Shown: piece after piece, positions 1-48,351 of the stretch
How positions within the stretch are numbered: the first letter of the stretch is position 1
Layout: the number at the start of each line of letters is the position of its first letter
Assembly: GCA_012295275.1 (NCBI GenBank)
Contig: CM022676.1
Coordinates: forward strand, 2,666,001 to 2,730,000
Origin: Chrysomallon squamiferum
Taxonomy: Eukaryota > Animalia > Mollusca
Reading direction: 5' to 3'
DNA: 64,000 nt
Made by a program: the position numbers and the translations under genes
The notes under the pieces: generated by a model
Told to the model about the DNA's origin: nothing
The model's input: the letters and a program-made list of their open reading frames with translations, nothing else
Databases searched by the model: none

Positions 1-45
1 AAAATGGAACATATTTATTGCTTAAATAACTGATTCATCTTTTAG

Positions 46-105
46 TTCTAGAAGAGTTGTACTACATGAATCGTGATGACAGATTACAGAATCAAGTATT
101 GCCAG
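46..105 (+). CDS. Gene 1 60-nt Tyr-containing tail exon with a GC donor
   Basis: tttag|tt cta gaa gag ttg tac tac ... ttg cca g|gcgagt; phase 1-1; LEELYYMNRDDRLQNQVLP. Confidence 0.6.
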
Positions 106-3100
106 GCGAGTACCATAAAATCATATGAAATTAGACTGAAATAACCAACTTGCACATGATACAGAGTTTATTCCAACAGAAATAAACATTTGTCTTAAAA
201 TCTGTGCTTATTATTAATAACATAAATTTATTTGAAGAAGAAAGGAAATAAGATAAAACCGTTTCTTCAACAGCTGAACAATACTGGAAATTTTCACATT
301 GCAATAGCTATTATTCTTTCTATTGCAGAAATAATATTTTATAAACTGTTAAATTTAATAGATATTTGTGGTAAAAAATTAAAACAAATAATTATTTAAT
401 TAAATTATTTTCTTGTTTTTGTTTCAGTGTTGGAGGATAATGATTTGTATTTCAAATCTGATGACAAAAAGAAACTCAGATTGCCAGGTTTGTATTACAT
501 CATGTTTAAAAAGAGACAAAGAGGGAAAAAAAGTAATAATATTAATAATAAAATAATTTACAGATAACTGATCTCTTCAGAATATAAGTTTCAGTAATAT
601 GTTGCTGTTTTTTGTTGTTGTTTTTTGATGTTTTTTTAGTTTAAAAAAATTAAAGACAGATTTATTCTGGCAGCATTTAATAATATGGAAATGAAAATTA
701 TTTTCTTATTCTGTATACAATTTTTCAATCATTACAATTAATAGTTCATTACTTAATTAATTTACTTTTAACCACATTCATATTAAAACTGTGTTGTACC
801 AATTTTTCATTACATACAACTGCTGATAATGAACATGATACGTGTTCTTTTCATTGCTAAAAAAGAGTAAATTATAATATCTTTACCCATCCATTTATCC
901 ATCATCTGTGAATTCTGTCTGTTATCTTTTTGAGTCTAATTTTGCCATAGTCTATGTATTATTTTTGCGAAATGTTAATAATAATAATAATAAAGAATTG
1001 GCTTGTAAGAATTCTTAGTTTTTAGAAATGATAAATTCATAATACATTTACACAAACATACCAGTGTCTGGTGTTGCTAACATTTTCATATTTATTAAAA
1101 TGATATCTACTGTAATTTAATATGCTGTCATTGTTATAGCAGGAAATGATTCCAGACAAGTTGATCCTAAACCAAGCACAAGTTCTGGAGTGACAGCTGA
1201 GAATACTGAAAGTCAATATTCTGTTGTAAAGACAACAAAGACTGGTCAGTCTACAAGTAATCAGAGTAAAGAAGGTAAAAAAACATTAAAAACAAATAAT
1301 AGTAAAAAAACATGAAAGGCTGACTGGGACTTGGAGCATATCTTTAATGTTGAACTCTACACCTTTTCAAATGTACTTTATATAATAGTATCCAATGACA
1401 ATCTTATTGATGTAGCTCAATGCTATCATTTCAACAGATTTTAGTCATTGTTTAATAAACCTTGAAATTATATATGGATCCAAATTATTTAAAATTTGTA
1501 TCACATTTTTTATAAAAGCTCCACACAATTTACTATTAAATATTTATTAGGTCATAACAGAAATAATACTTGTCAAAAATTAAATTGTTTCTTGCTGATG
1601 TGCTGCTTATAATACAGTATTCACAGTCATCAAAAGTCATTTATAAGTGCAACTATTATGTGGCTTTGGTGAACATATTGTTGAAATGGTGGCTGGAAAA
1701 AAGTCACAAAATGTATGGGTTTGTATTGAATGTGGCATTATAGTATGCATGGGCTAATTGTTAAACTTATTGATTAAGCTAGATTAAAGAAAGTGGCTTC
1801 ATACTGGGTCTAGCTTGGGTTTAGCTTGCTGATTAGGATATATTTAAACTAAGGGCTTCCTATTGTAAATGATTTATAAAATATCCCAGGTTAAAATTAT
1901 TTCACTATATATTCTACAGCTTGCTCTAGTATCAGAAGTATGTTTAATATTGAAGTTACTCATAGCAATAAGAGTGGTAACAAAATCTGTTATGAGGGTT
2001 CATGTATACCAAACATGCAAATCGCAAAACAAAGTTGTGGTGGAAATGCATAAACAAATATCATTGTAATTGTCGAGGTTCAACAATAACAGACTTACAG
2101 AGAGAGCCTTGAGGACTGCAAAACTGTGGTAGAATTTCTTTGTGGTATTGGGTGGAACATCCACCTAAATCATCAACATTAAAATCAAAGAACAGGTGTT
2201 TCATCTATCTTTCATTTCTTAAATTTAATAAAAAGTTGTGACATTTTTCCTAGAATTGTTGAAACACCTGCAAATAATTGAGAAGAAAAGAACATTCTTA
2301 GAAAAGAGAACTGCAAGTAGAGGATATTTCAAAACTTGTCAAATGGTTTTCTTACCATGAATAAAAGAAGAAGAAAAAAAAAATATCTATGAGCCACTTC
2401 ATACAGAAATCTGATTTGGACAGATTCTGGTTTAGAATGTATTTTTTTGTTTGTTTGTTTTTAAACATAATTGTAAGTTGCACAAATGAAATGTGTTGAC
2501 TGTATCATTAAATGAAAATCTTCCTACCTTTGTTTAAGTTAATTGTCACTTATAAAATTCATATTATTGTTTGATCAGTTAATGTTATTTCTCCTATAAA
2601 TTACAGGTGAGAAAGGTAAAACAGAGTCTGCCAATGAGAAAAAAAGAAAGAGGAAAAGCAAGATATAAAAAGAAGGGAACAAGAAAAGAAAAAGAAAGAA
2701 AAAGGTTTGTAAATTGAATTAGCAGGCTTATGCGATGAATTAATTTACACCTAAATTTAACAAGTAATATGAAATATTTTTTCTAACTATGACATTTTTA
2801 CGGGGATCCTACTCCAAATTTGGACACTCTGGTAACATAGAAATTCATACACTATCTAAAATACAGGGATCGTATGCATTTTGGAAAGTTTGGGAAAATC
2901 GGGTTTTGTTACATTGGCTGTGGAAAAAGTTATGGAAAATTATGTATGAAATAATGTATGAAAAACTGCTTTGTTTCACCAATATTCCAAAGAGTGCTGG
3001 TACAATTTATTGTTCCCATATTTAGTAATCTTGTGAAAAAATGTATGTGTTTAAAACAAGCAGTATATAAAATCACCGTGCATAATCTGGATGATCTTAT

Positions 3101-4352
3101 CGGTGTCAAATGACGTCTTGCACACCCCAGCTATGTGGGAGGCATGTATTGATACAAAGTGTATTTCGTTTCCAGTTTTTTAAGTCTGTTTAGTTATCAA
3201 CAATACATGATACTTGTTGCAAACTTTTATCAGACTGGCAGAGTAGACTTGTTGTGATAGCACTAAGTGGTCAGTGTAATTCATTACAAACTGATAATCA
3301 TATATTGTTGCATTGTTATACTTTTGGTATCAACATGCACAATGTGACATGCCACATAATGATTTAATACAACGACAATCAGCTGTTCCAACTAGTTCAA
3401 GTTTTTAAATGCAAGAACACATCCTACTTACAGAATCTGCTGATACATTATTTGAAACTGAAAATGAATATCATATATAAAGTGCACCATTATATAAACA
3501 GCCCACTGCAACACGATTTGGAATAATTTAAAGCTACTTGTTAATTGAATAAGAAGAAAGGAACACAGCCACTTTTTGTGAAGCAATATTTCTGTATTCA
3601 TATTGTTGCCAATCTGCCTTAATCATAGTCAGCTCCACTCCAAGAATAAATTTGCATTTCAAAATGCCAAAATAAATTATATTATTTTTTTGATTATTAG
3701 TAATTCTACATTGATAACACGCAACTTAGTCAAGGCAAACATGTCTACAAACTGCAGAAAAACACTTTGTTGTGATTGAGAAAGCTTGAAAATGGTTTTG
3801 CAAAATTTGGATTTGTGGCTGTGGAAAGCTTTTGAAAAATCATGGAAACTTTGACAGCCTAAGGTGCACAAACCCTGAAAATAATTGTATACCACTGTAA
3901 TAAAAATAATTTTGTCACAGCAAGGATCAGAAAGGCCGTCAGAATATGTATTAAGCAAGAAGACATACAGGCTGTTGTTTTCAGTGGCGACTGTTTAATA
4001 AATAAGCAGACATGATAACAACACCATGTCTAATGGGTATTATGGCATTACATAATCTAATTAGTCAGTTTATACAATTATTTTAATATTAATCATTGCA
4101 TCCAAAAACGTGTGTATATTTATTTATATATATTTAGATGTACGTGTGAAATTCGGTTTGTTTGATATAATTTAAATGTTAAACTATTTCTTTTACTGAA
4201 TTTATTTAATACATGTGGAGTAATTTGAAACAGAATTTAAATTTTAAAACCAAAAGTATAATAGAAACAGATAATTAATTTTTTATGACAAAATAACAAT
4301 GATAATGATAATACTCATAATAATAATAATAAATAAAAAAATAATCATTATT

Positions 4353-4383
<31 letters not shown>

Positions 4384-4476
4384 TTTTTATAGCGAAAAGA
4401 AAGTGGAGAAAAGACAGAAAGGTGTTGTTCAGATAATTTTTATTTTAAAAAGTGTGCATTTCCATAGGTGTGTTCA

Positions 4477-4572
<96 letters not shown>

Positions 4573-4732
4573 ATAATAAAAAAATAGTTATCCTTAACAA
4601 AAAGAAAATATAAAATTATTTAGATTAATATTCTATTGTTATTGCTATTATTATCATTTTCAAAAACAAAAAATATAAAATTATTTAATTCTTTATGTCA
4701 GGTTAATATTCTAGTATTAATATTACTATTAC

Positions 4733-4803
<71 letters not shown>

Positions 4804-6347
4804 ACCACTATTATTATTATTATTATTATTAACTACCACTATTTTTATTGGCTTTTATTTTCAAAATTTATTTTTAAATTTGCTTAAAGCTTAATATAAA
4901 TATTTTAATATTACTACTTATTTCAAGACATAGACCAGTTATTTAGAAACTAAATATTTTTACTAATAATAATTATAGAAATTTCTGATGACAGAAACAG
5001 AGTGGTTTACAAAGGGAACTAGTTGATTAAAGAATACTCATCTGGAATTTTTCAACACATTTAATAATATGAACGATCAGATTCCATTTGACTCATTTAC
5101 TTTTGTTTAGGAGATGTTTATGAAAATGTTGATGTAAAGGATGATGGTGCATATGCAAATGCAGCATTTGAAGGAGAAAGTGCAGCAGGTCAGAATATAC
5201 AGGTAATAAATTAACATTTATGCACAGCAGTTATTAACTAAATAAATACAGAACTTTTTTTTAAAACTAATATGAATAAAAGGATAGAATAAACACTTGA
5301 ACCCATCGTAGATAAAGGACAGCTTTGACCAGTATCATACCCAGTAAAAACAAACCTAAACAAGAACTTACTTGTAAAACTTTGAAGCTATCAATGCAAA
5401 GAAAAACCTTGCCATTAGTTCCTCATATGGGGAAGAAAACAAACAACAAAAAAACATTGTATCCAAACATTTTAATTTATTTAAAGTTTCATGAAACATT
5501 TTTTTTTTTTTATCCCAATTTGTTGTCTAATATAATACATTAAATTTTAAATTTTGTATATATAACTCTATTTGTGTGAAATATTCTGAAATTTGATTTT
5601 CTTTTAATGTGAGAGAACAAAAAAAGATTAAAAAAAGTTATAGAAAATCTGACCAAAACTCAACCTATTTCAATGTGGAGACAAAGTTACAGTGAAATCT
5701 CTTTATTTACACTGGCTCTATTTTTCTCATATACTTTTTCTCAATGAACTATATGCAAGAAGGCCTGAAATGTTTATTTTAAATTATGTAATAGAACTTT
5801 GCAGGTATCATATATTATTGCATCTTCAGCAAATAGGTATTTGGCAGAGTAACTATGGCATATAGCTGGGGTAGTAAAACAAGGTAAATTTGGGTGTATT
5901 TAAAAAATAAGTTAAATTTATGTGTATTTATTTAATTCTTTTTTTATTTGAATCTTTCTAAAGTTAACTATTTGTGTATTCCAAAAAGTTAAATTTGTGT
6001 TTCTTAAAATGCAGACAAGTATTTTGGAGGTAATAAAGGGGAGAATGATGTTATAAAGGTATTTGATTAAAAAATTTCTTCAGTGACAAAATATTTGTTG
6101 AATACTGGAAGGCCTAAAGGGTATGGTATTAAGTAGTTATACGTCTTTTTTATTTCAGGGAGCAAAGCATGGCCGAAATGAAGATGGGTTACTGTATGTT
6201 GGTATAGATTTCTCTAACGCACAACCAAATAAACCAGTTCACAAAACACAGGACAAAGTGGAGTACGTCTCCACTGACTGGAACAAGAAAGCAGAACTAC
6301 TTCCTGATGAAGATGACAAACAAACAGAGCCTAAGAGTGAAAACTAA
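46..6347 (+). CDS. Gene 1: 3' cytoplasmic-tail exons of a tyrosine-motif (ITIM-type) membrane receptor; the 5' part lies upstream of the window
   Basis: Phase-compatible exons 46-105, 428-487, 1140-1274, 2607-2704 (1 nt short), possibly 4393-4421, 5111-5202 and 6159-6347 (stop). They encode LEELYYMN.., LEDNDLYF.., SQYSVV, a K/E-rich segment, DVYENV..GAYANA and GLLYVGIDF..VEYVSTDW. The ectodomain is not visible, so IgSF membership is inferred from context. Confidence 0.75.
428..487 (+). CDS. Gene 1 60-nt Tyr-containing tail exon
   Basis: tttcag|tg ttg gag gat aat gat ttg tat ... ttg cca g|gtttgt; phase 1-1; LEDNDLYFKSDDKKKLRLP. Confidence 0.7.
1140..1274 (+). CDS. Gene 1 tail exon with ITIM-like SQYSVV
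   Basis: NAGNAG acceptor (tag/cag), donor g|gtaaaa, 135 nt and open: GNDSRQVDPKPSTSSGVTAENTESQYSVVKTTKTGQSTSNQSKE. Confidence 0.75.
2607..2704 (+). CDS. Gene 1 Lys/Glu-rich tail exon (98 nt; 1-nt shortfall in an A-run)
   Basis: ttacag|gtgag...aaag|gtttgt. As written it hits TAA; one extra A in the A7 run gives a 99-nt phase 1-1 exon GEKGKTESANEKKKKEEKQDIKRREQEKKKKEK. Confidence 0.55.
2864..3877. mobile_element. Probable non-autonomous DNA transposon (MITE-like) in a gene 1 intron
   Basis: Imperfect terminal inverted repeats CAGGGATCGTATGCA / GTGCACAAACCCTG, with similar subterminal tggctgtggaaa..atggaaa blocks at both ends; no coding capacity. Confidence 0.45.
4479..4568. repeat. Compound (GT)n(GA)n microsatellite
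   Basis: Seen directly. Confidence 0.95.
4738..4830. repeat. (TTA)n microsatellite
   Basis: Seen directly; source of the poly-Leu ORF 4636-4887. Confidence 0.95.
5111..5202 (+). CDS. Gene 1 tail exon with YENV and YANA (YxN) motifs
   Basis: tttag|ga gat gtt tat gaa aat gtt ... ata cag|gtaata; phase 1-0, matching the next exon. Confidence 0.8.
6159..6347 (+). CDS. Gene 1 terminal coding exon with a tandem ITIM-like pair
   Basis: tttcag|gga gca aag; GAKHGRNEDGLLYVGIDFSNAQPNKPVHKTQDKVEYVSTDWNKKAELLPDEDDKQTEPKSEN*. Confidence 0.85.
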   Translation, partial: GAKHGRNEDGLLYVGIDFSNAQPNKPVHKTQDKVEYVSTDWNKKAELLPDEDDKQTEPKSEN

Positions 6348-9300
6348 CTTTTTTGTTTACTTAATGAAGTTAAAATAGGAAACTATTTTTTTACTAACAA
6401 ACAATTTCATTCCAGAGATACATGTAAGTAAATGTGTATTTTACACAGTACAGTTGTTTATTTTGAACACATTTAAATGTATATGAATTTTTATATTTAT
6501 AAATAACAAAGTTGATTACTTTCTACTATACAGTGCATATTTTAGATATAAATATATTTTATTTTATTACTAAAATAAATACTACTTTGCATAATTATTA
6601 GAGTGAAACATAACACAAGTAAATTTGAGGAAATTGGATTTGAAATTTATTAACACTGATCTTTTAACCAAGGACATTTGTTAACATCTTGGTAATAGAA
6701 ACAGACATTCATCTTCATTACATATGAAGTTTGACTGAAAATAAGTTACTAATACACATATACAGAGAGTTCATTTAGTTAGAATTTTTACAAAAATGTG
6801 ATTCACTGATTCTGCAAATGTTTTCCAGATGTAACAATTTGTGATGTAGCTATTTTGTGCTAACCAGTAATGTATCCAGTTCCCAACAGATATCAAAAGT
6901 CTATCAAACATTTAGAAAACATAATTTTAGTGAAATCCAGTTATTTATGTTAAAATAATTTGCTATGTGTCAGAATTATTGTGCTTTGATTTTAATTTTA
7001 AATACAGAAACTGTAAAAAAGTTCTGGTTTGGCTGTTATATCCATTGTCTTTCATTGGCATGTCTTCTAATTATTTTCTATATACAGTTGGACCCTACTC
7101 TATCAACCATCCTAGAGTCAACATTTTTCTGTGCATGTTGAGATCACCAGCTGGTCCCATCTAAAACATGTATGACTGATATGACCCTTTCCTCTGTTGA
7201 GTTAAAATAATTCAGTCACTGTTGTGTTAGTGTTGATATATTCTTCTGGTCTCAGCTTAGGCTTTTAGCTAGACAACTAATTAGATGTGTGAGTATTTAT
7301 ATTCTGTTGAAATGAATTTATAAAAAGGTAAAGTATAGTCAGTGAGAATGTAACTGTTGCTGACTTGTTATTGTCAAAAGTTATGGTTGGTAATTAGTTT
7401 TCACTTGTCATATAAAGTATTTATCTAAAACACTGACCAAAGTATTAAATTGCCTCATCAAAATTGAAAACCCATGCTTAAGCTAGTAAATGACTTGATT
7501 TTTACATAGATATTTTTGATATAGAGCCTTGTTAAAATGAGCTGTAGTAACAAGGTCTCGGATCAGTTAGTTATTTGTTAATTACTGGAGAACCAATCTT
7601 GATATTTCTTTGGTGACATCAATGTTATTTAAGAGCTTTTAATATAAAAGTATATATTTTTTATTATTTTTTGTTTATTCTATGTTTCTTACATAGATAA
7701 AATTAAAATAGTACTTCTCAGTTTTCTATGGTAAGTGAAAATGTGTTGATAATTAAGTTGTTATTTTTGGATAAATGTGAATTAACAACATAAACAATCC
7801 CAACTACTCTTGTTCTAGTATTATTTTCTAAAATCAGTAAACACCAAAAGAAAAATATTTTAATTATTATTTATAACTTAGAGAAAAAAATGAGTTCCCT
7901 TTAAAACATTAATTAATCACAAAAATTCTGAAAAAACAACATTTAAATAAATTTATTATTTGTATGGTTTGCCATGCTTATTTTTTCTTCCTTTTCTTAT
8001 TTTTTTTTTTTTTTTTTAATGAATGACACATGAATAAGTGTTTAAAATGCTTATATTTTAAAAATGTACACTAATAAACAAAACAACAAAAAAAATGAAA
8101 ACATTAAAAGTCCAATATGTGGAATACATTTTCCAATCCTTTTGAAAGTAACTATTTTAGGATTATCTTCTTCATATATTTGAAATGCATCTTTATGGAT
8201 CAGTAGAAAATGGAACTGTTATAAGGGCATGCAAAATTAGTCCAGTAGGATTATCAAAAACTGTCTATTGGTCTAAATGAATACTTGATGAGCAGTAGTA
8301 ATTTGTATTTTAAGAAAATAATTGAGATATTGGAACAAAGAAGACAAAATCTTAAGTGCTGATTAAATTAATTATTAAGCTTTATTAAGTTAAACACTAA
8401 TGAGAACAACAGTATTGTATTTAACTAGAATGTAGCATTCCACTGATTATATGGCTGATCTGAAGAAATAAACAAAAAATATTAATTTGCACAGATGAAA
8501 ATACCACTGAAAATATTCATTACTATCTTTATCTCTGTGAAGAATTAATTTTATTTCTGAATATGAAATTTTTAATATATTTTAAAACATGATTTTCTAA
8601 CATAAAAATTAAAAATTTACATAATTTTCATAAAATTATATCTCAGACTATCTCCAGATGTGTTTTTCACCAATAGAAAGTTTAAATTGTCTTTTTTAAT
8701 ATTAATTAATGTTAGATTGTAACATTAAATTGTTTTTCATAACAGAGCAATATTTCTTCACTTTAAGAAATGAAAAGTTCAAAATAATAGTATGTGCTGT
8801 AAATTTAAAATATTTTTTATTCATGTTTACATTTGAGTGTTAAAACATAATTACAGTGTTTTTATATATATACATTTTCTGTTATTCTTTTAATTGCAAA
8901 TAAATATTTTTTCTATTGCTTTTGTATTTAACATTTATGTTTTGTTTTTAAATATATATATATACTTACAAAACAAAATGTTCAATCAGTGACACAACTG
9001 AACAATGTTAAACATACAAAGAATGTTATTGTAACTCGCCAAGTATTCTGAAGATTTGATTGTAGGTTTACTTTGGGCTGGAATGCTTTTGGACCAGTAC
9101 TCTCAAATTGTATCACTAATTTCCTAGAGTTATTTGAAGGCAGAGTGTTACCAAAAAATCACATATTTTACAACATACACAATTATTAGTCCATGTATCA
9201 AAAGCTCATGAGCCACATGTTTATAATATTTTTGATTTAGATTTACATTTGAGTGCTAAAACATTTAGTCATTACAAATACAAATTATGTTCTACTACTT

Positions 9301-9558
9301 TTGTATATGCATTGTTTGTCTTTCAAAACGGCCACAACTGGATTTATATAGTGAAAATCTAATTTCTGTGATTAATACATTTGTTTTTGTTTTAAATCTT
9401 TCTAATTTGTATACACTAACAGACTAATAATTTCTATATTGTAAAATAAAGCTCAGAACATAAATATTATTATAAGTAATAGTTAACATCTTTCTTTTAA
9501 CGTATGAATTAAAAACAAAATAATAATAATAAAAATAAACGAACAAAAGTTCACTTAC

Positions 9559-9613
9559 CTAGACAATATCTTACAATCAAGACGAAAAGAAGTAATTATG
9601 TCAACAATGCCAT
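9559..9613 (-). pseudogene. Orphan signal-peptide (leader) exon of the gene 2 family with an in-frame stop
   Basis: 55-nt ATG..G|gtaagt exon MALLT*LLLFVLIVRYCL, paralogous to 22881-22935; upstream 9620-9835 matches 22940-23170. Confidence 0.75.
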
Positions 9614-10225
9614 TGTTTATGTTGTGACAGCATCTTTCTTCCAAGTACACGAGCTGTTCTCTAGGTTAACTACCTGTGTCACGTTATTACAGCTGTCATT
9701 GTGTAAAAGTCTCTACTTTCTTCATATATTTAATTAACTTCATTTCTTACTTAGCGCCTCAGTTTATCTCTTTCTTCAGTTTAGATATAAAATAAATTAC
9801 CAAAAAGGCTTTTACAATAAACTGAATTAGTTGTACACGATATGGTCAACATATACAATTATTTTTGTTGTTACTAATTTATTTTATATCAAAGTTATAC
9901 GTTTGTTACAATTACTTTTTTGTTTTATTATTGGTATTCTCTGTTTATCCAATTTATAACAGCAGTTTCTTAGAAACGTATTTTTGAGTACATTTCTGAT
10001 ATGACATACGTTTTTCTTTTGACTAGTTTCTTTCTCGAAAAACAAAACGGAAATAATTTGAAGAAACATATTTATTATACTGTATATAACAGTTAAACAA
10101 TCATCTACTATTTATTGAATTTAGCTTTTATCAAAGAAAACATGAAGTCTCAGTGTTAGTAGATAGAATATATTAACTATTACACTAATTAAAAACATAC
10201 ACAATACAAAGTTACTTCAGTTATA

Positions 10226-10344
10226 TCATTTGTCACCTTTCTTCACATTTTCATACAGGTTCAGTTTGGTGTATTGTGGTTCTTCTCTGCTTTCTTGTAG
10301 ATCTTCATACATGTGGTCAGCTTTTACAATATTATTTTCAACAC
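10226..10344 (-). CDS. Gene 2 terminal exon, ITAM 2 plus YENV
   Basis: GVENNIVKADHMYEDLQESREEPQYTKLNLYENVKKGDK*. Confidence 0.85.
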
Positions 10345-10442
10345 CTGAAATAGTTTTAAAATTTTTAAATAAAATTTCTTCTCTTTATAAATGGCAGTGA
10401 TTTCAAGTTACAGTTTAAAAAAAAAAACTATATAGGTTTTAC

Positions 10443-10547
10443 CAGTTTGTCTCAGATTCTTGAGAATTCTTGAGTATTCAGTAGTATCTCTGTTTTGTTG
10501 AAGTCCTTCGTATGTCTGGTCTGTAACTGGACTCGGATGTTCCATAA
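10443..10547 (-). CDS. Gene 2 cytoplasmic exon, ITAM 1
   Basis: VMEHPSPVTDQTYEGLQQNRDTTEYSRILKNLRQT; 105 nt, phase 1-1. Confidence 0.85.
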
Positions 10548-10821
10548 CTGTAAAGATAACAAAAATCAGTAACTGATAAATACACAGCTATTACAAAAGC
10601 AACAGTCACTACTACAAAAACTGCTTTCGACTAGTGGTGCATAATATCATACATTAGTTCTAAAAATTAGATTTGCTATGTTATTTTTGTTTTTTAACCT
10701 TAATGTAAAAGATAAAAATACAAAGATAGCGATTATATTAAGGAAAATTAAGGGAAAACACACGTGTCAATTACTGTTACTATTTAGTTTTCAACGTTTT
10801 GTAAATTGTGTAATCAGTTAC

Positions 10822-10953
10822 CGGATTTGTTTGAAAATGGTCTGCATCTTCTAAGAAAAAAAACAATTATCACTATGAGAACAATTTCAGTCACAGAACC
10901 AAGAGCTCCTCATACAGCTGCACCAAGCAGAGAACTAGAACTACTATGTTCTT
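10822..10953 (-). CDS. Gene 2 transmembrane exon with an in-frame TGA
   Basis: EEHSSSSSLLGAAV*GALGSVTEIVLIVIIVFFLRRCRPFSNKS; 132 nt, phase 1-1. Confidence 0.8.
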
Positions 10954-11742
10954 CTGAAGTTGTAATACATAAATAACATTTATAATAACATTTGTTTCTT
11001 CTGAAAATTGAATAACGTAAAAACAAAAATTGTTATAAAACTGTAGTAATTAAACTCCATAATAACAGTTAATTCTTCAGCAGCTGTTATCATTACTTAA
11101 ACATGAATGATGTTATTATCTCTTTCTTTTGTGATCAATAATTAAAAATAAGCAATAATATAACTGTAAAATCGTAATTACAAATTATATATCAGCGTAA
11201 TGTTTGTTATTTTAAAACTGTTAAGTTTATTAATACAACAAATATTATCATTTTCTTCCTTTCAGTTAAGACAGTTTCTAATGTTAGTGAAAAGAAAGAA
11301 CAGATTTCAGGTAGGTGATTAGATTAGATTGAATATTCTACACTGATATATATATAATATTAATAAATTAATTAAATGGTTTGATGATCACTGTAAAATG
11401 CTTCCACTGAAATTCAACAAAATTCTATAAAATAAGAAAATAAATATACTTATGCACGTAGATATGCATACATACAAATGACCAATCAATCATACACACA
11501 AATAAAGACATGCACATACAGCTATATACACAGTAATACACAGAAAAATATACTCTGTTACTGAAATAAAACATTAAAAAGATGATAAATTCAATATAAG
11601 TAAATGTTAAAATTCATATAGTGAATTATATATCTCTCAACCACAAAAATACATATATTTATATTTTTAACTTGTGAAACTTATAATTATTTTTTCTTCT
11701 AGTGGTAATAATAAAAATGAATAGGATTGTCGTATTAATTAA

Positions 11743-11857
11743 TTTTAATATTTGTTTTATCTTTTAATTATTTACATTTGTGTATGTATCTATGTACATA
11801 CATACATGCATGCATACACAAATGTAAATAATTAAAAGATAAAACAAATATTAAAAT
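11743..11857. repeat. Near-perfect inverted repeat (about 44-bp arms) in the gene 2 FN3-TM intron
   Basis: ttttaatatttgttttatcttttaattatttacatttgtgtatg and its reverse complement (one indel) around a short loop. Confidence 0.85.
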
Positions 11858-11907
11858 ATTATATATATACTCAGAAAATGTGAACAAACTTAAATGAACA
11901 AAATGAA

Positions 11908-11940
<33 letters not shown>

Positions 11941-11956
11941 CATAATAATCATAATC

Positions 11957-11987
<31 letters not shown>

Positions 11988-12157
11988 TAAATATAAATAA
12001 AAATAATTTAAAAATATTAAATAAATAAAGTAAAAAGAAATAACAATACTTAGATCGACATTTAGATCAAAGTATTCTTTCAATTTAATTTATATGGATA
12101 TTTGCTTGGTGTAAAATATTTTAAAACTTTATAAAATAAAAGAAGATGCTAATTAAC

Positions 12158-12805
12158 CTTTTGTAATTGCTTGAATGGTGACATAATCACTTCTATTATC
12201 TGAAGTTCTCATGTCTTCAGCTGAAATTCTCACATCATAAACTGTTTTATCGTGGAGATTGGTGATCTTAAAAAATATTTTCTGTCCCTGTGTTGAGTCA
12301 TTAAACCATTTACTTGTCCAAGAAGTAATCCAGTTAGAGTCACTTTGTAATTTGTACTGCAGTATAAATCTTTGTTTGAAATTACCACCTGGGTAGTTAG
12401 GTAGCCAGGACAAGAACACTGTGTCTGATGTTGATTCTCTTTCTTGTTGGAACTCTTTAGGAGGAAAAGGTGGACCTGCTCCAGTTAGGTTCACAGAGAA
12501 CTCAGAGCATCCAACTTCATTACAGACAGACAGTTTGTATGTTCCAATGTCGTTTTGAGTAAAATTACTGATACTGAGATAAAACGTGTAACCAGAATTT
12601 GTTACTGTTTTACTGTGTATTTGTAATGTAACACTTTCCTGTACTACATCTGTGTTATTATAATGTGTTTGTTTATCAAAGTTATTCCAAGTAAATGTTG
12701 GGAAGTTTGGCTTGGAAAACACAGATTTGATTAGTCTGACAGGTCTTCCAGTCTCAGCTCCCAGGATACTGTTTGCCTTGGTCTCCATAGCAATCTTTGG
12801 TGTTG
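12158..12805 (-). CDS. Gene 2 membrane-proximal Ig + fibronectin type III exon
   Basis: 648 nt, phase 1-1; ..NDIGTYKLSVCNEVG..GPPFPP..VFLSWLPNYPGG..FILQYK..ITNLHDKTVYDVRISAED. Confidence 0.9.
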
Positions 12806-13418
12806 CTATAGTTTAATAATAAAACTAATTTGTAACAATTATGTACAGTTTAACTATTATAGTTAATAAAGAGACCAAAAATTATTTTTATTTTAGATCT
12901 GAATTTTCAAATTTAATAATTAATTTATGATTGTAAAATATTTAACTTGCAAAGTATACGAAAGAAGCAACTTATAACATGGAAAACATCAAGGCAGGCT
13001 TTGGTGATCTATACAGTGAACCCTTGATTTAACAGAGAATGAGTAGCGTGGAAAAAGAAACTCAGACATTTTGTAGTGAGGTGTTAAAAATAACACAAAT
13101 ATTGATATTGGTAATGTAGGATAACATACAGAAATAAATTTTCTTTAAAATAACAGATTTTAAAAAGCCTGACAGACAGCAGATTGAACTGGCTCAGCCA
13201 TTATCATATAATTCATTCCAAATCAGTGGAGATTGGAGATTATTTATACATTTCCCAGATTTCTCTCCAGAGTTTTCCTAAATCAAGTAAGAATAGGTTG
13301 GGTTTACTGACAAACACCAATAATTTGCGTGTTAAAAATTATTACTAAAAAACTTTAGTTATTCCATTGTTTATTTTACTTTTCTAATCAGAGAAATCAA
13401 ATTACAACTATAAAATCC

Positions 13419-13706
13419 CTTTTACATAAATATCAGCAGATTTGGTTTGACTCAGTTTTCCAGATCTATCTCTAATTCCATTATGTACACTACAAGTGTA
13501 CGTTCCTCCATCTTCACATATAACAGATTTAAACATCAGTCTGTACTGACTGTTTCCAACAACAACTCCACTAACATCCTCTATAAATACTCCATTCCAA
13601 TAATGTTTAAAACTTGTAAACGTCAAGTTGCCAGGACGACCATCAGCAAAACACGTAATATTTGCTGTTATGTTTTCTGTTGTATTCACTGAATCAAAAG
13701 TGATGT
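13419..13706 (-). CDS. Gene 2 Ig exon with a defective donor
   Basis: ITCFADGRP..HYWNG..EDGGTYTCSVHNG; ends aaa g|ggattt, with GG where GT is needed. Confidence 0.8.
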
Positions 13707-13797
13707 CTAAGAAAAATTGCTAAAATAATAAGTAAATATTGTTAATTTGTTTAAATAAACAGCTACAAGTTTGGAGACAGAACAAACAGATACTTAC

Positions 13798-14064
13798 AGC
13801 TGACAACAACTTCAGTGTCGCGTGACTTAACAAGGTAGACATATTCTTTTGTAGTGACGTTTGCTTCACATGTGTAATTACCATGATTTGTTCTGTTCAA
13901 GTTTGTTAAAATTAACTTTCCATTATTAATCAGCTCTTGTCGATCAAATGTCCACTTGAGTTCAGCTGGACGAGGATTGCTGTCTGATGTACAGGTCAAG
14001 GTCAGGTCATCACTTTCTTTAAGAAGTCCTGATTTTGAAAATGTGACTTTGATTCTGGGATAAT
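13798..14064 (-). CDS. Gene 2 Ig (I/C2-set) exon
   Basis: YYPRIKV..LTLTCTSDSNPRPAELKW..NHGNYTCEA; 267 nt, phase 1-1. Confidence 0.85.
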
Positions 14065-14352
14065 CTAAAATATGACCAAGTTGAAATAATAAAATTAATA
14101 TTAAACATCTAACAACTCTTTCTAAATGAATGTACTATATTCTTTCTTATAAAGAAACTGAATTTCTGTTTATTTCTTACAACTGTTTTATTCTGATAAT
14201 TATTTAAAAGCAACTGAAAAGATGTTGACATGATTTAGATTTCAATTTTCAACAGACTAATACTTTTTAATTCAGTGAGTACTTAGCAGTAACGTTTCCA
14301 AAATTAAAATCAAACAGATCATTAAAAATGTTTGAGGTAACAAATATCGTAC

Positions 14353-14640
14353 AGTAAATGTTTAGTTGTATCTTATTAGATTCATGTCTTTGTTGTTCGT
14401 TTCTGTCTGTGTATTCATTCCCAGCTGAACATTTGTAGCAGACTCCATTGTCTTCCTTTGTGGGTGTCAGTGACAAGTTAAATCCTGTGTGTTGTACATC
14501 AGATCCATTTCTAATCCAGTAAAACTGAGCTGCTGCATTTCCTTTACCACTGTCAGGTAAAGAACAAATCAAAGAGCCTCCTGTGTTTTCTAGCCATGGC
14601 TGTTTAGGATCTGATGAAAGTGTTGTTTTGTGTGGATGAT
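14353..14640 (-). CDS. Gene 2 Ig exon
   Basis: YHPHKTTL..LICSLPDSGKGNAAAQFYWIRNG..EDNGVCYKCSAGN; 288 nt, phase 1-1. Confidence 0.85.
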
Positions 14641-16342
14641 CTATTTAAAACATTTTCATTTTAATTCAGATAAAGATGTCTTGATTTTTGTTTTTCATAT
14701 AAATAAGCAGGAAAATATATACATTTTGTTGTATCTGCAATTTTGTTAAATTATTATTTTCTTCTGAATTGTGAATGGAATACCGACACAGAAATATATT
14801 TACTAATATAAAAAAGAAGTATTTGTTATATTTATTTCTAAGAATTAATTGTTTTTAAACATTTATTTCACAAATTCAAGGTCAGTGTTACAAATATTTA
14901 TGTAAATATGTAAATATAAAAAAAAAATGTTGCTGATTGCAAATTCTTAATCAGTTGTGCCATATTTTTCAACATGACTCACTGACTGCAGACAAAAGAA
15001 GTTGTAAACATTTTTAATAAAAAAATAAACCCTGATATTGTCTAAATTACTGAGGTGGTAAAGTAAATACCTTGGTTATAAAAGTTCCTACTCATAACAA
15101 ACAAAACCGCGAAGTAACGCTATACTTGTAAGTAGTGTGGTTAAGCCAACTGGGTGATTTTGCAAAGGAATTGCCAAAAGGTGAAATTTTATTACAATCC
15201 AATAATTACCAGTCACTGTTTGGGTTAGATCTGCATTGCTAATTAGAATTAATCCTTGATTACCACACTAATACTAGTATTATAGATAAACAGGCGGAAA
15301 TAGTGGAAATAAATCAATTAACATATTTCAAAAACCTCACAAGTTTGATAAATGTGAATAAAACTTACAGGAACAAAGAGATAACAGTAGTGTTGTGGTT
15401 ACTTGCACACAATTAGACTACCACGTGAGATGAAAGGTTCACGTTTCTTTGAAGGCTTAAGAAATAATGGTCCCATGTTTCTTGTAATTACTATATGCAG
15501 GTAAATGATCAATATTATTACGAGTGTGTATTGATACCTAAATGAATTCATTCATTTAGTTTTGCACGTTTTGCATTGTCTTATTTAATTTATTATAATG
15601 GCAGAGCAACCTAAAAATGACAAATATGAAACCTTCTATGCAGTGTAAAGTGAAATTAATAAGAATAGTTTTCATTAAATCTACTTATAACAGTGACCAT
15701 TACTGGCTATTGTAAGAAACCAACATTTTGACAATCAGAAAACAAGTAATGACTGGCGAATCAAAAATTGTTTGACGATACACAAAAACTTTCGTACACT
15801 CACCAAACGTTCATATATACTAACAGTTTTAAAATGATCACAGAATTTAAATTTCTTGCTGCTACTACCATGACAGAAGTTTGCTTCTGAGAGAAATATG
15901 GAAAGGAAAAAAAAAGGTCCTGTCCTCAGTGATAGACTATTTATTAGTTGACAACTGATAGGCATTTAACTGAAACATTTGTAATAAGAAAATATTCCAA
16001 CTTCATAAACCGGCACGCTGACTAAAACAGCATATCTCATTGGTTCCAAGTGAATACAGTTTTGACAGTCTACTCTCTCTCACTGTAGATAGGTAGATAG
16101 ATGGATCTATAAAAAAAAAAGCAAAAATAAATTGACTAAAACTGTGTTGTGTTACCACGGTGTGATCATTGTGTTAGATGTAAATGGCCATTTATTAACA
16201 ATACAAGTCAAATAAATTTGAAAATAAAAATAAAATAAATGAATTAACGTTGAGAACTAGATGTCATTACAAAAAAAAAACACACAAATAAACTGATACT
16301 CAATATAAACATTTAAAAAATATCTAACATTAAAAGTCTTAC

Positions 16343-16654
16343 ACCACACATCAAGTATTCCAGTGTTGGATGTTACAAGAGTTTGTCCAGGAATCCCTGC
16401 GTGGCAGTAAACACTGTGTCCATCATCTGACTCAGTCAGTGTTAGCGACAGAGAACTCTTTCTTACAGTCAGGTCACCTGATGTGATATTTATGTTGGTG
16501 ATTCCTGTGTTTATCTGTTCATTATTCTTGTACCAGTAAACAGAGGAGACTGGGTTGCTAGGTGACGTGACACATGTCAGAGAGTCAAAACCTTCACTGA
16601 TTTTTTTATTATTCTGTGAACTGATGTTTAATAGTGTCACCTATTTTACTTGTA
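16343..16654 (-). CDS. Gene 2 Ig (C2-like) exon with an in-frame TAG
   Basis: VQVK*VTLL..LTCVTSPSNPVSSVYWYK..DDGHSVYCHA; 312 nt, phase 1-1. Confidence 0.8.
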
Positions 16655-25914: not shown

Positions 25915-26095
25915 TATTTTACTATTGGCATACAAAACTCCTCATAACGAATAAGGAATAAAAACATTTCAGATTTTCTTTACAAATACACATTTTATTT
26001 CAAGATAGTAATAAGTTATTATCAGTTCTCATCGTAGTTGGATAAATTTTAATATGATAAATAAAAGTGAATAATTCTAAATAAATGTTATTACC

Positions 26096-26254
26096 TCAAC
26101 TCGGTGTGTTATCAGACACCTTCAGCTTTTCATACGCAGGTGCATCACGTGATTGTAAACACTCGTACTGAGTTGTAGGTATTTGACCATGTTCTATAAA
26201 TTTATTAATACTTTCATAAACACATTTTGATAAACTATTTTTCCGTAATATTTT
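26096..26254 (-). CDS. Gene 3 terminal exon with an ITAM
   Basis: KILRKNSLSKCVYESINKFIEHGQIPTTQYECLQSRDAPAYEKLKVSDNTPS*. An internal acceptor before EHGQ is also possible. Confidence 0.75.
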   Translation of the reverse strand, partial: KILRKNSLSKCVYESINKFIEHGQIPTTQYECLQSRDAPAYEKLKVSDNTPS

Positions 26255-27405
26255 CTAGAAAATATTAATTAAAGAAATCGTTACCGGAATTTGAAAAAAA
26301 TATTAGGCGCTTATTTTTAATTCATTTAATTTACTGCAGCTTCTTTGAGTTTATAACATATTGTATATAAAACAAACCTAATAATGTTCTTTCAGTCTTT
26401 GTCGAAATTACTTATTAATTGTTCAAGCTCTTCATGAAGTGAATAAAATATGTGACTGTTTGTAACTGTCTGCCTCTTTGTGTGTATGGGTTTATGCATA
26501 AGGTTTGTTAATGTGTATGAAAAATTGGCATCTGATTTTGAATTTCCGCAATCATCTTGATTAATACTTCAAGATCTACTTCAGTTTGAATCGTTTTATG
26601 TATTAAAGAGACAGCTTCTTTGCAAAGGAAATTACTCTAGTAAAACTAGGATCTAAAAAAGATACTCAAAACACTGGATTTCTATTTTACCTGCACAAAC
26701 AGCTGTTTCACCATTGATACGTCTTGATATCTGTGAAACATAATAAGAAAAATATACTGGTATCTCATTCAAGTATATTTGGTTTTACTTGCATTGCTGT
26801 AACGAGACAATCACACACTTTGCAGAGGTATTTATGTTAATAGAGCAATGTAAATATTTTATTAGAGGTTAATATATTTTCAATCCTGATACAATTTTGC
26901 AGCAAAATTTACTTTAAACATAAATAATGATATGATATAGTTATGCACTTTGGGCATACTAGTGTCTATTTCGAACAAGGTCTGCAGGTACTTTAGTAAA
27001 TAGATACTGAATATCTCTTATCACAGTAGTAATCAGAAATATTTCAACACACTACTCACGTATGTGTTTCATTTTCATTTTTGCTGTCTGAACCTGTAAC
27101 ATATATGTACAGTTGTATTTTACAAGCTAAATAATAATTCTTACGTTGAAATAATTGGATTGGATTTTCTTTTTTAAACAACCAATGAAAAAAGAAAGAA
27201 ACAATAATAAAAATAAATAAATGCACGCACATGCACACACACACACATACGTATATATAGTTAACGATCAGAAAAAATATTAAAAATAAAAAGTAAGAAA
27301 GAAAGATAATTTTAAAATAAATTATTAAAAACTACAATAAAATAAATACGAAATATTCAAAACAGTAAAACAATATCTAATGAGTGAGTCTAAAATTTAA
27401 CTGAC

Positions 27406-27534
27406 TACGGATGGTGTAACCTCTTCTCCTCAAGATGAACAGAATAATTATTGCAGGAAAGCAGAGCAGAAGTATTCCTACTACCAGACCAATTCCAATT
27501 CCAGTTCCAAGTGTTGCCATGGACGAAGATTCTT
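27406..27534 (-). CDS. Gene 3 transmembrane exon
   Basis: ESSSMATLGTGIGIGLVVGILLLCFPAIIILFILRRRGYTIR; donor a|gtcagt. Confidence 0.8.
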
Positions 27535-27798
27535 CTACAGTGATTATAATAACAAGTTTAACTACATAAATCAATTATCCGCATTTACGTTTAATTTTTT
27601 AATTAAAACTTTCTTCTAAAGATCTTTCCTTAAATAATGCCAATAGTTTCGACAATGTCAAATTCACCAGAACCTGTATACAAGTAATGTAAAAAAGTAA
27701 ACAAAAACACACAGAGAAGAAATAAATAAATAAATGAATAAATATTTTGCTGAAATTGTAAATGAAGAATCGAAAACTATATATATTATTTTACTTAC

Positions 27799-28086
27799 TA
27801 AAAGTAGTACAAACAGTCAAACAGTAACGGCTGTCATTTTTATTTGCAGACCAGTAAATTTTAAAGTGGTAGGAAGAATTGGACTTGAGATGAGAAATGT
27901 GTAAAGAAAAAGTCTTGTCGTGTCTCTTATTGTCTGACACTTGCAGACTGATAGACTGGTCTTCAGTAGACAAGCGTTGTTCGACAGTGAATCTAGTGAA
28001 CTTGTTTGTGTTGTATTTCCACTTGAGATCTGCTGAAGTTTCTAACACATTTGTGCAGTAACACCATTCAGGAGCTGATTCAAGAA
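27799..28086 (-). CDS. Gene 3 FN3 exon
   Basis: LESAPEWCYCTNVLETSADLKW..ISHLKSNSSYHFKIY; 288 nt, phase 1-1. Confidence 0.8.
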
Positions 28087-28282
28087 CTAAAACGTGAAAA
28101 AAGATTTATGTTGTGTTTTAATTTCATCTGCAATTTATATATATATACATTTTAGTAAAACCTGCATATAAAAATTGATACTGGCTAATTCTGATAGGGA
28201 TGGAAGCAACAAAAACAAAGAAATGAAAAATCATTTGTACTTGCTAACAAAGGTCACATGAAAAATGTGGAAATAAAGTTAC

Positions 28283-28543
28283 CTGTAACAATGACACTGG
28301 CAGATCCTGACACTGAAGTGTTAAAAGAAGTTTTTGAAATTGCTGAACACGTGTACTCTCCTTGGTCTGACTGTTGAAATGAGCAGATTTGAAACAGAGA
28401 ACCATCAGTGAGATGTTTTGTACCAGTTCGCCATTCAAATACAACACTGTCTGGATTACTGTCAGCTGTACAGTGTAGTATCACAAGTTTTCCCAGTTCA
28501 ACTCTGATGTGACTCTCTGATAAAATTCTTACTCTGGGTGCAT
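28283..28543 (-). CDS. Gene 3 Ig exon
   Basis: APRVRIL..VILHCTADSNPDSVVFEW..SDQGEYTCSA; 261 nt, phase 1-1. Confidence 0.85.
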
Positions 28544-29485
28544 CTACACAGACTGAAATACAAATATATGTAAAAAGAAGAAAAACAACAACATAATGCA
28601 TGCACAGAAAAAAAAATACAAGAAAAAATACAATTAATCTAAGAGGAAACAGAAAACAGATCACATAGATTGCATTATTTCGCAGAAAACTACTGAGGAG
28701 AAGTGGTAAAATACAGTTAACGTACATTGTTTATTTCTGTTTATTATTTATAAGGATGATGTGAGCATGTTGAAAGCAATATTCAAATATCTTCCTAAAT
28801 TATGTCAATATTATTTACTTATTTACTTAATGTGAAAGTTATAATGAACAAAGAAAACAAACAAAACAACAACATTTAAACAACATAAAATATACATTCG
28901 TATGAAGAGAATTAGATTCAAGTCTCTGTTGTCCACTTCTGTCTGTGAAGAGATTTCCAGCTGTACATTTGTACCAGCCTCCATTGTCTTCCTTTGTAGT
29001 TGTCAGAATTTAAATCCTGTATTTTGAATGTCTGTTCCATTTCTAATCCAATAAAACTGAGCTGCTGCATTTCCTTTACCACTGTCAGGTAAAGAACAAA
29101 TGAAAGAGCATCCTGTGTTTTCTAGCCATGGCTGTTTTGGATCTGATGAAAGTGTTGGTTTGTTTGGAGGATCTATTTAAAAGACTCGTTTTAATTCAGG
29201 TAAGTGGGGGTATTTATCTCTTCTTTTCACTTTTTTTTTCCACATTTTCTCATATAAAGAAGGAGAGGAATATAATTAAATCTGGCTGTATCTGTAATTG
29301 CTCTAAAATTACTATTATTGTTATTTTCTTTGGAGAGTCAGACATGTAGATGTGTTTCTTTCACAGTGTATCTAAACATCTTAATTTTATTCAACTATTC
29401 TCGTTTTAATTGTTGTAAGTTAAATATTTTGTACTAGAAATAAGTATTAATATCGATAGATACATACATACATACGTATACATAC

Positions 29486-37260: not shown

Positions 37261-39005
37261 TTACACGACAAAGAAAATGCTGACTACAACGAGTAACACA
37301 GAAGAGACTACAGCAACGGCAGTTACAGCAGTTTTGTTACATTCACAATCGATGATATTTTCTTTTACAGTCGATGTGACATCTGGCTTGGGAGGCAACG
37401 TTAAATATGTTCATATAATTAATGATTATAAACCAAGTCAGTATCATCCATGATTACATCGAATATACTATCACAATAATTGACTGATATAATTGTTTAG
37501 TCCGTGTATTCAAATTAATTTTCAACTTCAAGGTAAACACAATCAACTTTACTGTAAAGATGTGTTGACAAAATAATTATTTAAGACATTACATACAAGT
37601 GTGTATTATCTATATTTTTATAGCTATCCTCATTATTACATCTAAATCTTATAAATTTAGGAGTAACTGTAAATCTTACTAAGCGGTATAAACCACGAGT
37701 TTCAAACTTGTAAAGTTATCAGCATCAAATAACATAAAATAAAAATATCGTAGTATCTATAATGCAGACTAAAATACAAAAATTTCATATTACTATTAAT
37801 ACCAAGATTTACTTTCAGTGTAAAATAAACATAATGCCTATAAAAAAATATAAAATAATAATAATAAAATTTAAAAATTAAAATGGGAAAATTTACAAAT
37901 ATACTTCCTCGATTGATGAGCTTTTCTGTAATATAAAAACACAAAAAATGTTGAGAAATAAACAATTATGAAAATTATTTTGCTTGCTGAGGTAAATGTT
38001 AAAATATTTATGTTGTAATAGACATTATTGTAAACGATCAAAACACTACACAAATATAAATCTGTCATTTCACAATTATCTTTACCCAATGAATAACACA
38101 GCAATAATTAGAGTGATTTGTATGATATTATTTATACGTCAGCACCAATTGAAATATAATTCTGTATGATCTACTGTCCTGGTACGTTCGAGTTACATTT
38201 TAAACTGAAATGAGTCAGTATTAACATTGTTTACACATAAACAAGACGGTACTTTTCATTTATAAAAAATAAAAATGACATTTAGAAATAAAATAATTAT
38301 TACTTTTATATTGATACAGCATACAAACAAACAGGAAAACAGAAACACATGCAGAAATGCATAGATGAAATGAAACCTGCATACTGCAGAAAGATGCTCA
38401 GCTGCAGAGATTAACAGAAAAATGGAAACCAATTCTAAAACCAAATAAATTGAAATCTTACTTTCAGTATTGATGGTAAAGTTTGCAGAATACAGCTCAT
38501 TATTACCCACAATGCATCTGAACATTCGTGTGTTGTCAGTGAGAGATACAGTGTGATTTAAAACAGAACTTCCTCTGTTCTCACACCCAGATAGTGTAGG
38601 TGGGTCATCTTTGATTCTGTCTGTGTTTGGGTACAGCATCCACTTCATGTCAGCAGCATACTTCCACTGCCACGACCACGACTGTGCTGGGTTACCAACA
38701 TTTCCATTACACCTGAACTCTACAGTTTCACTGATAACATAGGGGCTGAACTCCTTTCTTGGTGTAACGATCATTTCAATTTCACCAGGTTTTGCTGAAA
38801 CAGATAAAAACACGAAGTAAATAAACACTGCTTTTTTTCTGTAATTTAGTTCAATTATATATATATATATATATAGACACAGATAGTTAGACGAAATTTG
38901 TATTATATACAAATATACTTTTTTCGACTAATTTTGAAACGATCATTTCAATTTCACCTGGTTTTGCTGATGTAAAAACACAAAATAAATAAACACTAAT
39001 TTATT

Positions 39006-39048
<43 letters not shown>

Positions 39049-46634: not shown

Positions 46635-48351
<1,717 letters not shown>

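What the first reader, a model, noticed from the sequence alone, without database searches (positions are those of the whole stretch)
1140..6347. Gene 1 tail has inhibitory-receptor architecture
Seen: SQYSVV (1211-1228) and LLYVGI (6189-6206) match S/I/V/L-x-Y-x-x-I/V/L. A second Tyr (VEYVST) lies 23 residues after LLYVGI; YENV and YANA give YxN sites. Established: tandem tyrosines about 23 residues apart, as in PECAM-1, suit tandem-SH2 phosphatases SHP-1/2. Caveat: VEYVST lacks the +3 hydrophobic residue.
Basis: partly seen in the sequence, partly recalled or inferred. Interest (0 to 1): 0.7.

Follow-up and report, generated by a model that had tools for sequence, protein, structure and literature searches.

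The report
Snail inhibitory immune receptor tail, broken
These exons encode the inside tail of a snail cell-surface receptor whose two conserved tyrosine sites are predicted to dock an "off-switch" phosphatase; it sits beside look-alike receptors carrying predicted "on-switch" motifs, suggesting a likely paired on/off family, although this particular copy is frameshifted and likely broken.

Summary
The motifs are all present at the stated coordinates, and RNA contigs bridge four of the exon junctions. The tail aligns exon by exon with Gigantopelta aegis receptors built Ig-Ig(-Ig)-FN3-transmembrane-tail, so it belongs to a membrane receptor.

The last two tyrosines are invariant in gastropod and bivalve relatives, 23-26 residues apart, and fit the published SHP2 N-SH2 pattern. 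SQYSVV is a poor SHP2 site.

This copy is likely null or truncated unless that exon is skipped.

Neighbouring genes 2 and 3 carry ITAMs instead. In Gigantopelta an ITIM-tailed and an ITAM-tailed receptor share 87% ectodomain identity, while two ITIM-tailed ones share 67%. This is the pattern of vertebrate paired receptors.

Verdict: a new member of a known kind (oyster CgNCAM1-like ITIM receptor), in a likely paired ITIM/ITAM family. Binding and inhibition are untested.

The parts
52..105 (+). Tail exon a (54 nt, phase 1-1, GC donor); acidic Tyr repeat
   Evidence: RNA joint in X1 and X4; GC donor read; 7 of 14 aligned residues identical to P0015
428..487 (+). Tail exon b (60 nt, phase 1-1); second acidic Tyr repeat
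   Evidence: RNA joints on both sides; 13/19 identical to P0013, 12/19 to P0015
1140..1274 (+). Tail exon c (135 nt) with SQYSVV at 1211-1228
   Evidence: RNA joints in X1; aligns to P0015, where the tyrosine is kept as SLYASV; stretch absent from the P0013 model
2607..2704 (+). Lys/Glu-rich exon d, 98 nt, one base short of the homolog's frame; in-frame stop TAA at 2666-2668
   Evidence: RNA joint 1274/2607; stop; its second half matches P0015 in another frame; X2 contig record 10 has no gap inside it
4393..4421 (+). Probable small Lys-rich exon e (29 nt; phase does not fit its neighbours)
   Evidence: AG/GT ends and 5/9 identity to P0013 and P0015; no RNA joint among those listed (58 joints were not shown)
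5111..5202 (+). Exon f with two YxN sites (YENV 5119-5130, YANA 5152-5163), predicted Grb2-type docking
   Evidence: 19/30 identical to P0013 and P0015; RNA joint to 6159; Grb2 binds pYENV in CD22 (PMC5302901)
6159..6347 (+). Last exon g: tandem sites LLYVGIDF (from 6189) and VEYVSTDW (from 6258), 23 residues apart; stop 6345-6347
   Evidence: 40/60 identical to P0015; both tyrosines invariant in 7 of 7 aligned rows; RNA joint
10224..16640 (-). Gene 2 (3' part): convergent Ig-repeat + FN3 + TM receptor of the same family, with two ITAMs (10512-10465, 10309-10262) and a TGA in its TM exon at 10912-10910
   Evidence: Pfam Ig/fn3; about 60% identity to Gigantopelta receptors; ITAM scan; stop
26095..29167 (-). 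Gene 3 (3' part): Ig + FN3 + TM receptor with one ITAM (26167-26123); one Ig exon is broken near 29006-29030

Best explanation
Gene 1 is the 3' end of a snail Ig-FN3 single-pass receptor gene whose conserved tail is predicted to recruit the tandem-SH2 phosphatase SHP2 (Corkscrew type) and likely damps signalling from ITAM-bearing sister receptors, but this copy carries a frameshift and is likely null or truncated. Steps: (1) shown: exons, splicing of four junctions, motif conservation, ITAM-bearing relatives next door; (2) inferred from homologs: Ig/FN3 ectodomain and TM lie 5' of the window; (3) inferred from known SH2 preferences: after ligand binding a Src-family kinase phosphorylates the distal pair, the two SH2 domains of SHP2 clamp both sites and the phosphatase opens, while YENV/YANA dock Grb2; (4) inferred by analogy: SHP2 or SHIP counters Syk/Shark signalling from ITAM receptors that see similar ligands; (5) shown in DNA, effect inferred: exon 2607-2704 stops translation before these sites, so intact signalling comes from other alleles or paralogs, or from exon skipping.
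For: Homologs P0015 and P0013 (G. aegis) have Ig + FN3 + TM and a collinear tail. Y13, F18, H28, E35, Y36 of the last exon are invariant in 7 of 7 rows; +3 of the second tyrosine is I in 5 and V in 1 of 6 homologs; spacing is 23 in 6 and 26 in 1 of 7 homologs (three rows are one species). SHP2 N-SH2 prefers hydrophobic -2/+1/+3/+5 and acidic +2/+4 (PMC8007070): site 1 scores 4/4 with Asp +4 in the window and in 6 of 6 homologs that could be scored. At 6274 all listed depth in X1-X4 reads T, giving Ile; the other five listed changes in the motif-bearing stretch are silent (2) or fall in the linker (3). Haliotis, Ruditapes and P0005 have an ITSM second site. Genes 2 and 3 and P0012 carry ITAMs. 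Oyster precedent for both arms: CgNCAM1 with ITIMs and SHIP2 (PMC11841013), CgIgR with ITAM and Syk (PMC6994640).
Against: No binding, phosphorylation or cell data. The strongest SHP2 ligands in the cited table (Gab1, Gab2, IRS-1) are scaffold sites through which SHP2 promotes Ras-ERK signalling (role recalled), and Grb2 sites beside them fit that reading too. Gene 1's own ectodomain lies outside the window and no genome was held. X3 has a spliced 5111-5202/6159 contig nearly identical to the window and without a gap, so a close allele is transcribed. Skipping exons d and e, or donors after 2615 or 2657, would restore the frame. Gene 2 is itself broken by a stop.
Confidence: 0.6

Rival explanations
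1. The tail is a positive scaffold: Grb2 sites plus a two-site SHP2 activation motif drive Ras-ERK signalling in adhesion or neural development, as in Gab/Dos, FRS2 or IRS-1 (roles recalled), and the receptor is a nephrin/NCAM-like adhesion protein.
For: Site 1 resembles the IRS-1 and Gab2 sites listed in PMC8007070; two or more YxN sites precede the pair in 5 of 5 relatives that reach that far (P0001, P0013, P0004, P0008; P0015); Atlas look-alikes of P0013 are NCAM, nephrin and fasciclin clusters at 0.92-0.94.
Against: Many copies, broken members and ITAM-bearing sisters with near-identical ectodomains fit an immune family better than a single-copy developmental gene; CD22 also pairs YENV with two distal ITIMs and is inhibitory (PMC5302901).
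Confidence: 0.2
2. This allele is functional: exon 2607-2704 is skipped or cut short, or the missing base is an assembly error, so a full tail is made; including the exon could give a short-tailed decoy isoform.
For: Exons c and f are both phase 1, so a c-f join is open to the end; in-frame donors exist after 2615 and 2657; X3 holds a near-identical spliced f-g contig.
Against: X2's contig across exon d has the same length as the window; X2's contig that runs into the last exon has an extra base behind 6175 that stops the frame after 7 residues; exon e does not fit in phase; the short exon before YENV that P0013, P0015 and P0004 share was not found; the only RNA joint listed from exon c goes to 2607, with 26 letters on the short side; Thr at +3 is in no homolog.
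Confidence: 0.3
3. The motifs are chance matches in a low-complexity tail.
For: A single ITIM-like hexamer turns up in 24% of shuffles; SQYSVV is missing from the P0013 model and scores 1 of 4 on the SHP2 pattern.
Against: The distal tyrosines and their -2, +3 and +5 neighbours are kept across gastropods and a clam while the linker varies.
Confidence: 0.04

Closest known systems
Oyster CgNCAM1 (PMC11841013; passages seen)
   Same: Mollusc receptor with Ig domains, one FN3, TM and a tail with two ITIMs; reported to bind microbes, associate with SHIP2 and lower inflammatory gene expression.
PECAM-1 (PMC3298659; passages seen) and CD22 (PMC5302901; passages seen)
   Same: Two distal tyrosine sites, 23 apart in PECAM-1 and 20 apart in CD22 (843/863), that bind SHP phosphatases; CD22 also has a Grb2-binding YENV just upstream.
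   Different: Vertebrate proteins; no tail homology was found, so the likeness is of motif layout, probably convergent.
Vertebrate paired receptors: KLRC, Ly49, PIR (PMC3210942; abstract and outline seen)
   Same: Opposite tails on ectodomains more alike within a species than between receptors with the same tail type.
   Different: Here the activating members carry their own ITAMs; shared ligands and opposite signals are untested; the evidence rests on predicted gene models.
Hydractinia Alr (10.1101/2022.03.04.482883) and Botryllus FcoR (PMC12582321); passages seen
   Same: Invertebrate clustered Ig-superfamily genes with ITAM- or ITIM-bearing tails; FcoR alleles and splice forms swap or drop motifs.
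   Different: Other phyla; allorecognition role; no link to allorecognition is shown here.
Oyster CgIgR (PMC6994640; passages seen)
   Same: Five Ig domains, TM and an ITAM that recruits Syk: the likely model for genes 2 and 3.
   Different: No FN3 is named in the passages seen; not described there as paired with an ITIM partner.

Membership tests
ITIM-bearing Ig-superfamily inhibitory receptor | Ig ectodomain and single TM segment | tested here: met
   Through homologs only: P0013 and P0015 have Ig, FN3 and TM ahead of a collinear tail; gene 1's own 5' part is outside the window.
ITIM-bearing Ig-superfamily inhibitory receptor | Conserved [ILVS]xYxx[ILV] motif(s) in the tail | tested here: met
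   Site 1 met in the window and in 6 of 6 complete homologs; site 2 not met in the window (Thr at +3) but ITIM or ITSM in 7 of 7 homologs and Ile in all four runs.
ITIM-bearing Ig-superfamily inhibitory receptor | Motifs are translated as part of the receptor in this copy | tested here: inconclusive
   Constitutive joins stop at 2666-2668 or earlier in the tail; only skipping or alternative donors reach the motifs; no read-level data.
ITIM-bearing Ig-superfamily inhibitory receptor | Phospho-dependent binding of SHP-1/2 or SHIP and inhibition of an activating pathway | not testable with these tools
   Needs biochemistry and cell assays.
Paired activating/inhibitory receptors | Closely similar ectodomains on opposite tail types | tested here: met
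   In G. aegis models P0013 (ITIM) and P0012 (ITAM) share 186/215 in the Ig-FN3 part and 38/45 around the TM, against 145/215 and 14/42 for the two ITIM receptors, whose distal tails share 81/92. Not testable for gene 1 versus gene 2 themselves.
Paired activating/inhibitory receptors | Ectodomains homogenised within a lineage while tail types persist | tested here: inconclusive
   AU tests reject an ITIM clade (p 0.00011) and a cross-species ITAM clade (p 0.009) on 7 rows; groups were chosen after seeing identities, gene 2 is a long branch, and three rows have no usable tail.
Paired activating/inhibitory receptors | Shared ligand and opposite signalling | not testable with these tools
   No data.
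PECAM-1 / CD22 (Siglec) gene families | Sequence orthology | tested here: not met
   The last exon found only mollusc and unnamed relatives among 1.84 billion representatives; Atlas tail hits were all 0.80 or lower.

The most novel reading that the evidence does not exclude
Snails of this lineage have their own family of true paired receptors: ITIM-tailed (gene 1 type) and ITAM-tailed (genes 2 and 3 type) Ig-FN3 proteins in one cluster, whose ligand-binding parts are repeatedly homogenised or swapped while the opposite tails persist across species, with frequent null alleles, as in vertebrate KIR/Ly49/PIR/CEACAM. In symbiont-bearing relatives such as Gigantopelta this balance could set tolerance versus attack on bacteria.
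Probability: 0.4. Interest if true: 0.75.

Novelty: new member of a known kind. Interest (0 to 1): 0.48.

Why it matters
ITIM and ITAM receptors have each been reported singly in oysters, and together in cnidarian and tunicate allorecognition loci. I found no report of a mollusc family that pairs them on near-identical ectodomains (paper searches; open-licence library only, and only the top 20-30 rows of the larger result sets were seen). If confirmed, paired on/off immune receptors with ectodomain homogenisation would have arisen independently in a protostome, and the family offers ready-made chimera tests. The tail alone is an ordinary ITIM receptor tail, and this copy is probably damaged.

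Tried and rejected
No whole genome was held, so gene 1's 5' exons could not be read. Word-index protein searches with the last exon (longer proteins) and with P0013 residues 340-585 found nothing; these are weak negatives, since one search found relatives by full HMMER. A metagenome scan gave 124 pattern matches and no relative. Of 8 hits, three (P0002, P0006, P0007) were repeat proteins unrelated in sequence and were dropped. Pfam found no family in the last exon; a DUF4578 hit on P0008 is under its cut-off. Atlas hits for the tail were all 0.80 or lower. Searches for the two short homolog segments flanking exon e found no convincing exon in 2705-5110. No second copy of gene 1's tail exons lies in the window. 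Of the many six-frame ITAM pattern matches, only the three in homolog-supported exons were kept; the rest are mostly microsatellite frames. Summed depth of 520-970 on the last exon against about 135-145 on long X2 contigs hints at several copies but is no copy number. No fold or complex job was sent: the tail is expected to be disordered, no SHP2 sequence was held and phosphotyrosine cannot be modelled. Earlier-findings look-ups returned nothing. No supplements were opened; those of PMC7895826 might show whether its expanded 'CEACAM5' family is this one.
Full report
Observation. The window is AT-rich, intron-bearing animal DNA. The nearest named relatives are from the vent snail Gigantopelta aegis, at about 60% identity, so the source is likely a related gastropod.

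Gene structure. Candidate exons are 52-105, 428-487, 1140-1274, 2607-2704, 4393-4421, 5111-5202 and 6159-6347. Four public runs were laid on 1-11900 (three RNA runs of one study and one run of unrecorded kind that behaves as DNA; all contigs; likeness 90). RNA contigs bridge 105/428 (a GC-AG intron), 487/1140, 1274/2607 and 5202/6159; 58 further joints were not shown.

What the protein is. An HMMER search of 1.84 billion representatives with the last exon gave 8 hits, 5 of them real relatives: P0001 (Gigantopelta), P0004 (Haliotis cracherodii), P0008 (Ruditapes philippinarum) and two unnamed, P0003 and P0005. Cluster look-ups added P0013 (XP_041378941) and P0015 (XP_041372798). Both have Ig domains, one FN3 and a TM segment ahead of a tail that matches gene 1 exon by exon: 12/19, 18/43, 19/30 and 40/60 identical to P0015 for exons b, c, f and g.

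The motifs. In seven aligned last exons only Y13, F18, H28, E35 and Y36 are invariant. Spacing is 23 in six of seven homologs and 26 in the clam; three of the seven are from one species. PMC8007070 (passages) gives the SHP2 N-SH2 preference as hydrophobic at -2, +1, +3, +5 and acidic at +2, +4. Site 1 scores 4 of 4 with Asp at +4; site 2 scores 3 of 4 in the window and 4 of 4 in the Gigantopelta proteins and P0003 (I counted Trp and Tyr as hydrophobic). The window's Thr at +3 is found in no homolog, and at base 6274 all listed depth in all four runs gives Ile, one contig each. Haliotis, Ruditapes and P0005 have TxYxx[IV], an ITSM, at site 2. SQYSVV keeps its tyrosine in P0015, is absent from the P0013 model and scores 1 of 4, so it is at most a secondary site. 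YENV is kept in the Gigantopelta proteins; the same motif binds Grb2 in CD22 (PMC5302901, passages). PECAM-1's ITIMs are at 663 and 686 and bind SHP-2 through both SH2 domains (PMC3298659, passages). One ITIM-like hexamer arises in 24% of shuffles and two in 2.5%; the SHP2-type pair in 0.07%, by a criterion set after the fact.

This copy is damaged. Exon 2607-2704 has 98 bases; entered in phase 1 it stops at 2666-2668, and of four exon combinations tried only the one that skips both Lys-rich exons reaches the distal sites. Its second half matches P0015 in a shifted frame. X2's contig over 2142-2983 has two gaps, both outside the exon, so the short exon is unlikely to be only an assembly slip. 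X2's contig running from 5108 into the last exon has an extra base behind 6175 that would stop the frame after seven residues. Exon 4393-4421 does not fit in phase, and the short segment before YENV shared by P0013, P0015 and P0004 was not found. Against this, X3 holds a spliced f-g contig almost identical to the window, with 42 unplaced bases in front, and in-frame donors exist after 2615 and 2657. I put null or truncated at about 0.65-0.7.

The neighbours. Gene 2, convergent on the - strand, has Ig repeats, FN3, a TM exon with a TGA at 10912-10910 and two ITAMs; gene 3 has Ig, FN3, TM and one ITAM. Gene 2's tail matches that of Gigantopelta P0012 (44% over 34 residues, E 9e-5), which also carries ITAMs. 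P0012 (ITAM) and P0013 (ITIM) share 285/331 residues over ectodomain and TM with unrelated tails. Over the Ig-FN3 part they share 87%, whereas the two ITIM receptors share 67% despite 88% identical distal tails; gene 2 is 59-61% from all six Gigantopelta rows. A seven-row tree groups P0013 with P0012 (97/97), and AU tests reject an ITIM clade (p 0.00011), a wider ITIM clade (p 0.011) and a gene 2 + P0012 clade (p 0.009). This is the pattern described for vertebrate paired receptors (PMC3210942, abstract and outline). Cautions: predicted models on 84-87 kb scaffolds may be chimeric, groups were chosen after seeing identities, gene 2 is a long branch, and gene 1's own ectodomain was not seen.

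Mechanism. Most likely, intact members are phosphorylated on the distal pair after ligand binding, clamp and open SHP2 (or bind SHIP), and oppose Syk-type signalling from ITAM sisters; Grb2 docks at YENV. Exons, splicing, conservation and family layout are shown; binding and the sign of the signal are inferred. The main rival is a positive Grb2-SHP2-ERK scaffold, since the best SHP2 ligands in the cited table come from Gab and IRS proteins.

What is known. Oyster CgNCAM1 has Ig, FN3, TM and two ITIMs and acts with SHIP2 (PMC11841013, passages); oyster CgIgR has an ITAM and recruits Syk (PMC6994640, passages). Hydractinia Alr and Botryllus FcoR families mix ITAM and ITIM tails (passages). A review of invertebrate IgSF names no gastropod ITIM receptor in the passages seen (PMC11999971). 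The G. aegis genome paper lists an expanded 'CEACAM5' family and never uses the word ITIM (PMC7895826, passages); whether that is this family was not tested. Seven searches on the subject (listings only, top rows) showed no mollusc paired ITIM/ITAM family.

Verdict. Observation confirmed; interpretation right for the family, unproven for function, and likely wrong for this copy as an intact protein. New member of a known kind, interest 0.48; the paired-receptor reading has probability about 0.4 and interest 0.75 if true.

Noticed in passing
window 106-427: The intron after exon 52-105 has a GC donor (GC-AG) and is bridged by RNA contigs in X1 and X4; X2 shows a 6-base in-frame insertion at the start of that exon.
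   Followed up: partly
window 52-105 and 428-487; P0013 residues about 355-435: The juxtamembrane acidic tyrosine repeats of the ITIM receptors align loosely with the ITAM repeat unit of P0012, as if they were decayed ITAM repeats; untested.
   Followed up: no
window 10912-10910 (- strand): Stop codon at the start of gene 2's TM segment: either a null allele or a secreted ectodomain (possible decoy); RNA contigs still bridge its TM and tail exons.
   Followed up: partly
window 33000-64000: A second, separate family of V-set + Ig genes with several near-identical, partly broken copies on both strands (about 38256-39892, 45969-46993, 51380-52300, 53181-53414, 56134-57416, 63302-63712); signs of recent tandem duplication.
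   Followed up: no
window 37220-37453, 44780-44860, 47600-47960, 54621-54863, about 59990-60050: Short Thr/Ser-rich stalk plus hydrophobic exons oriented opposite to or between the Ig exons, possibly TM or GPI ends of further genes.
   Followed up: no
window 1720-2230: High-copy repeat inside the intron after exon c; summed depth in X2 reaches over 6000.
   Followed up: no
window 49600-51350: Decayed transposon-like coding fragments; identity not tested.
   Followed up: no
window 61200-62450 and 63600-64000: Long degenerate short-unit satellite arrays flanking an Ig exon fragment.
   Followed up: no
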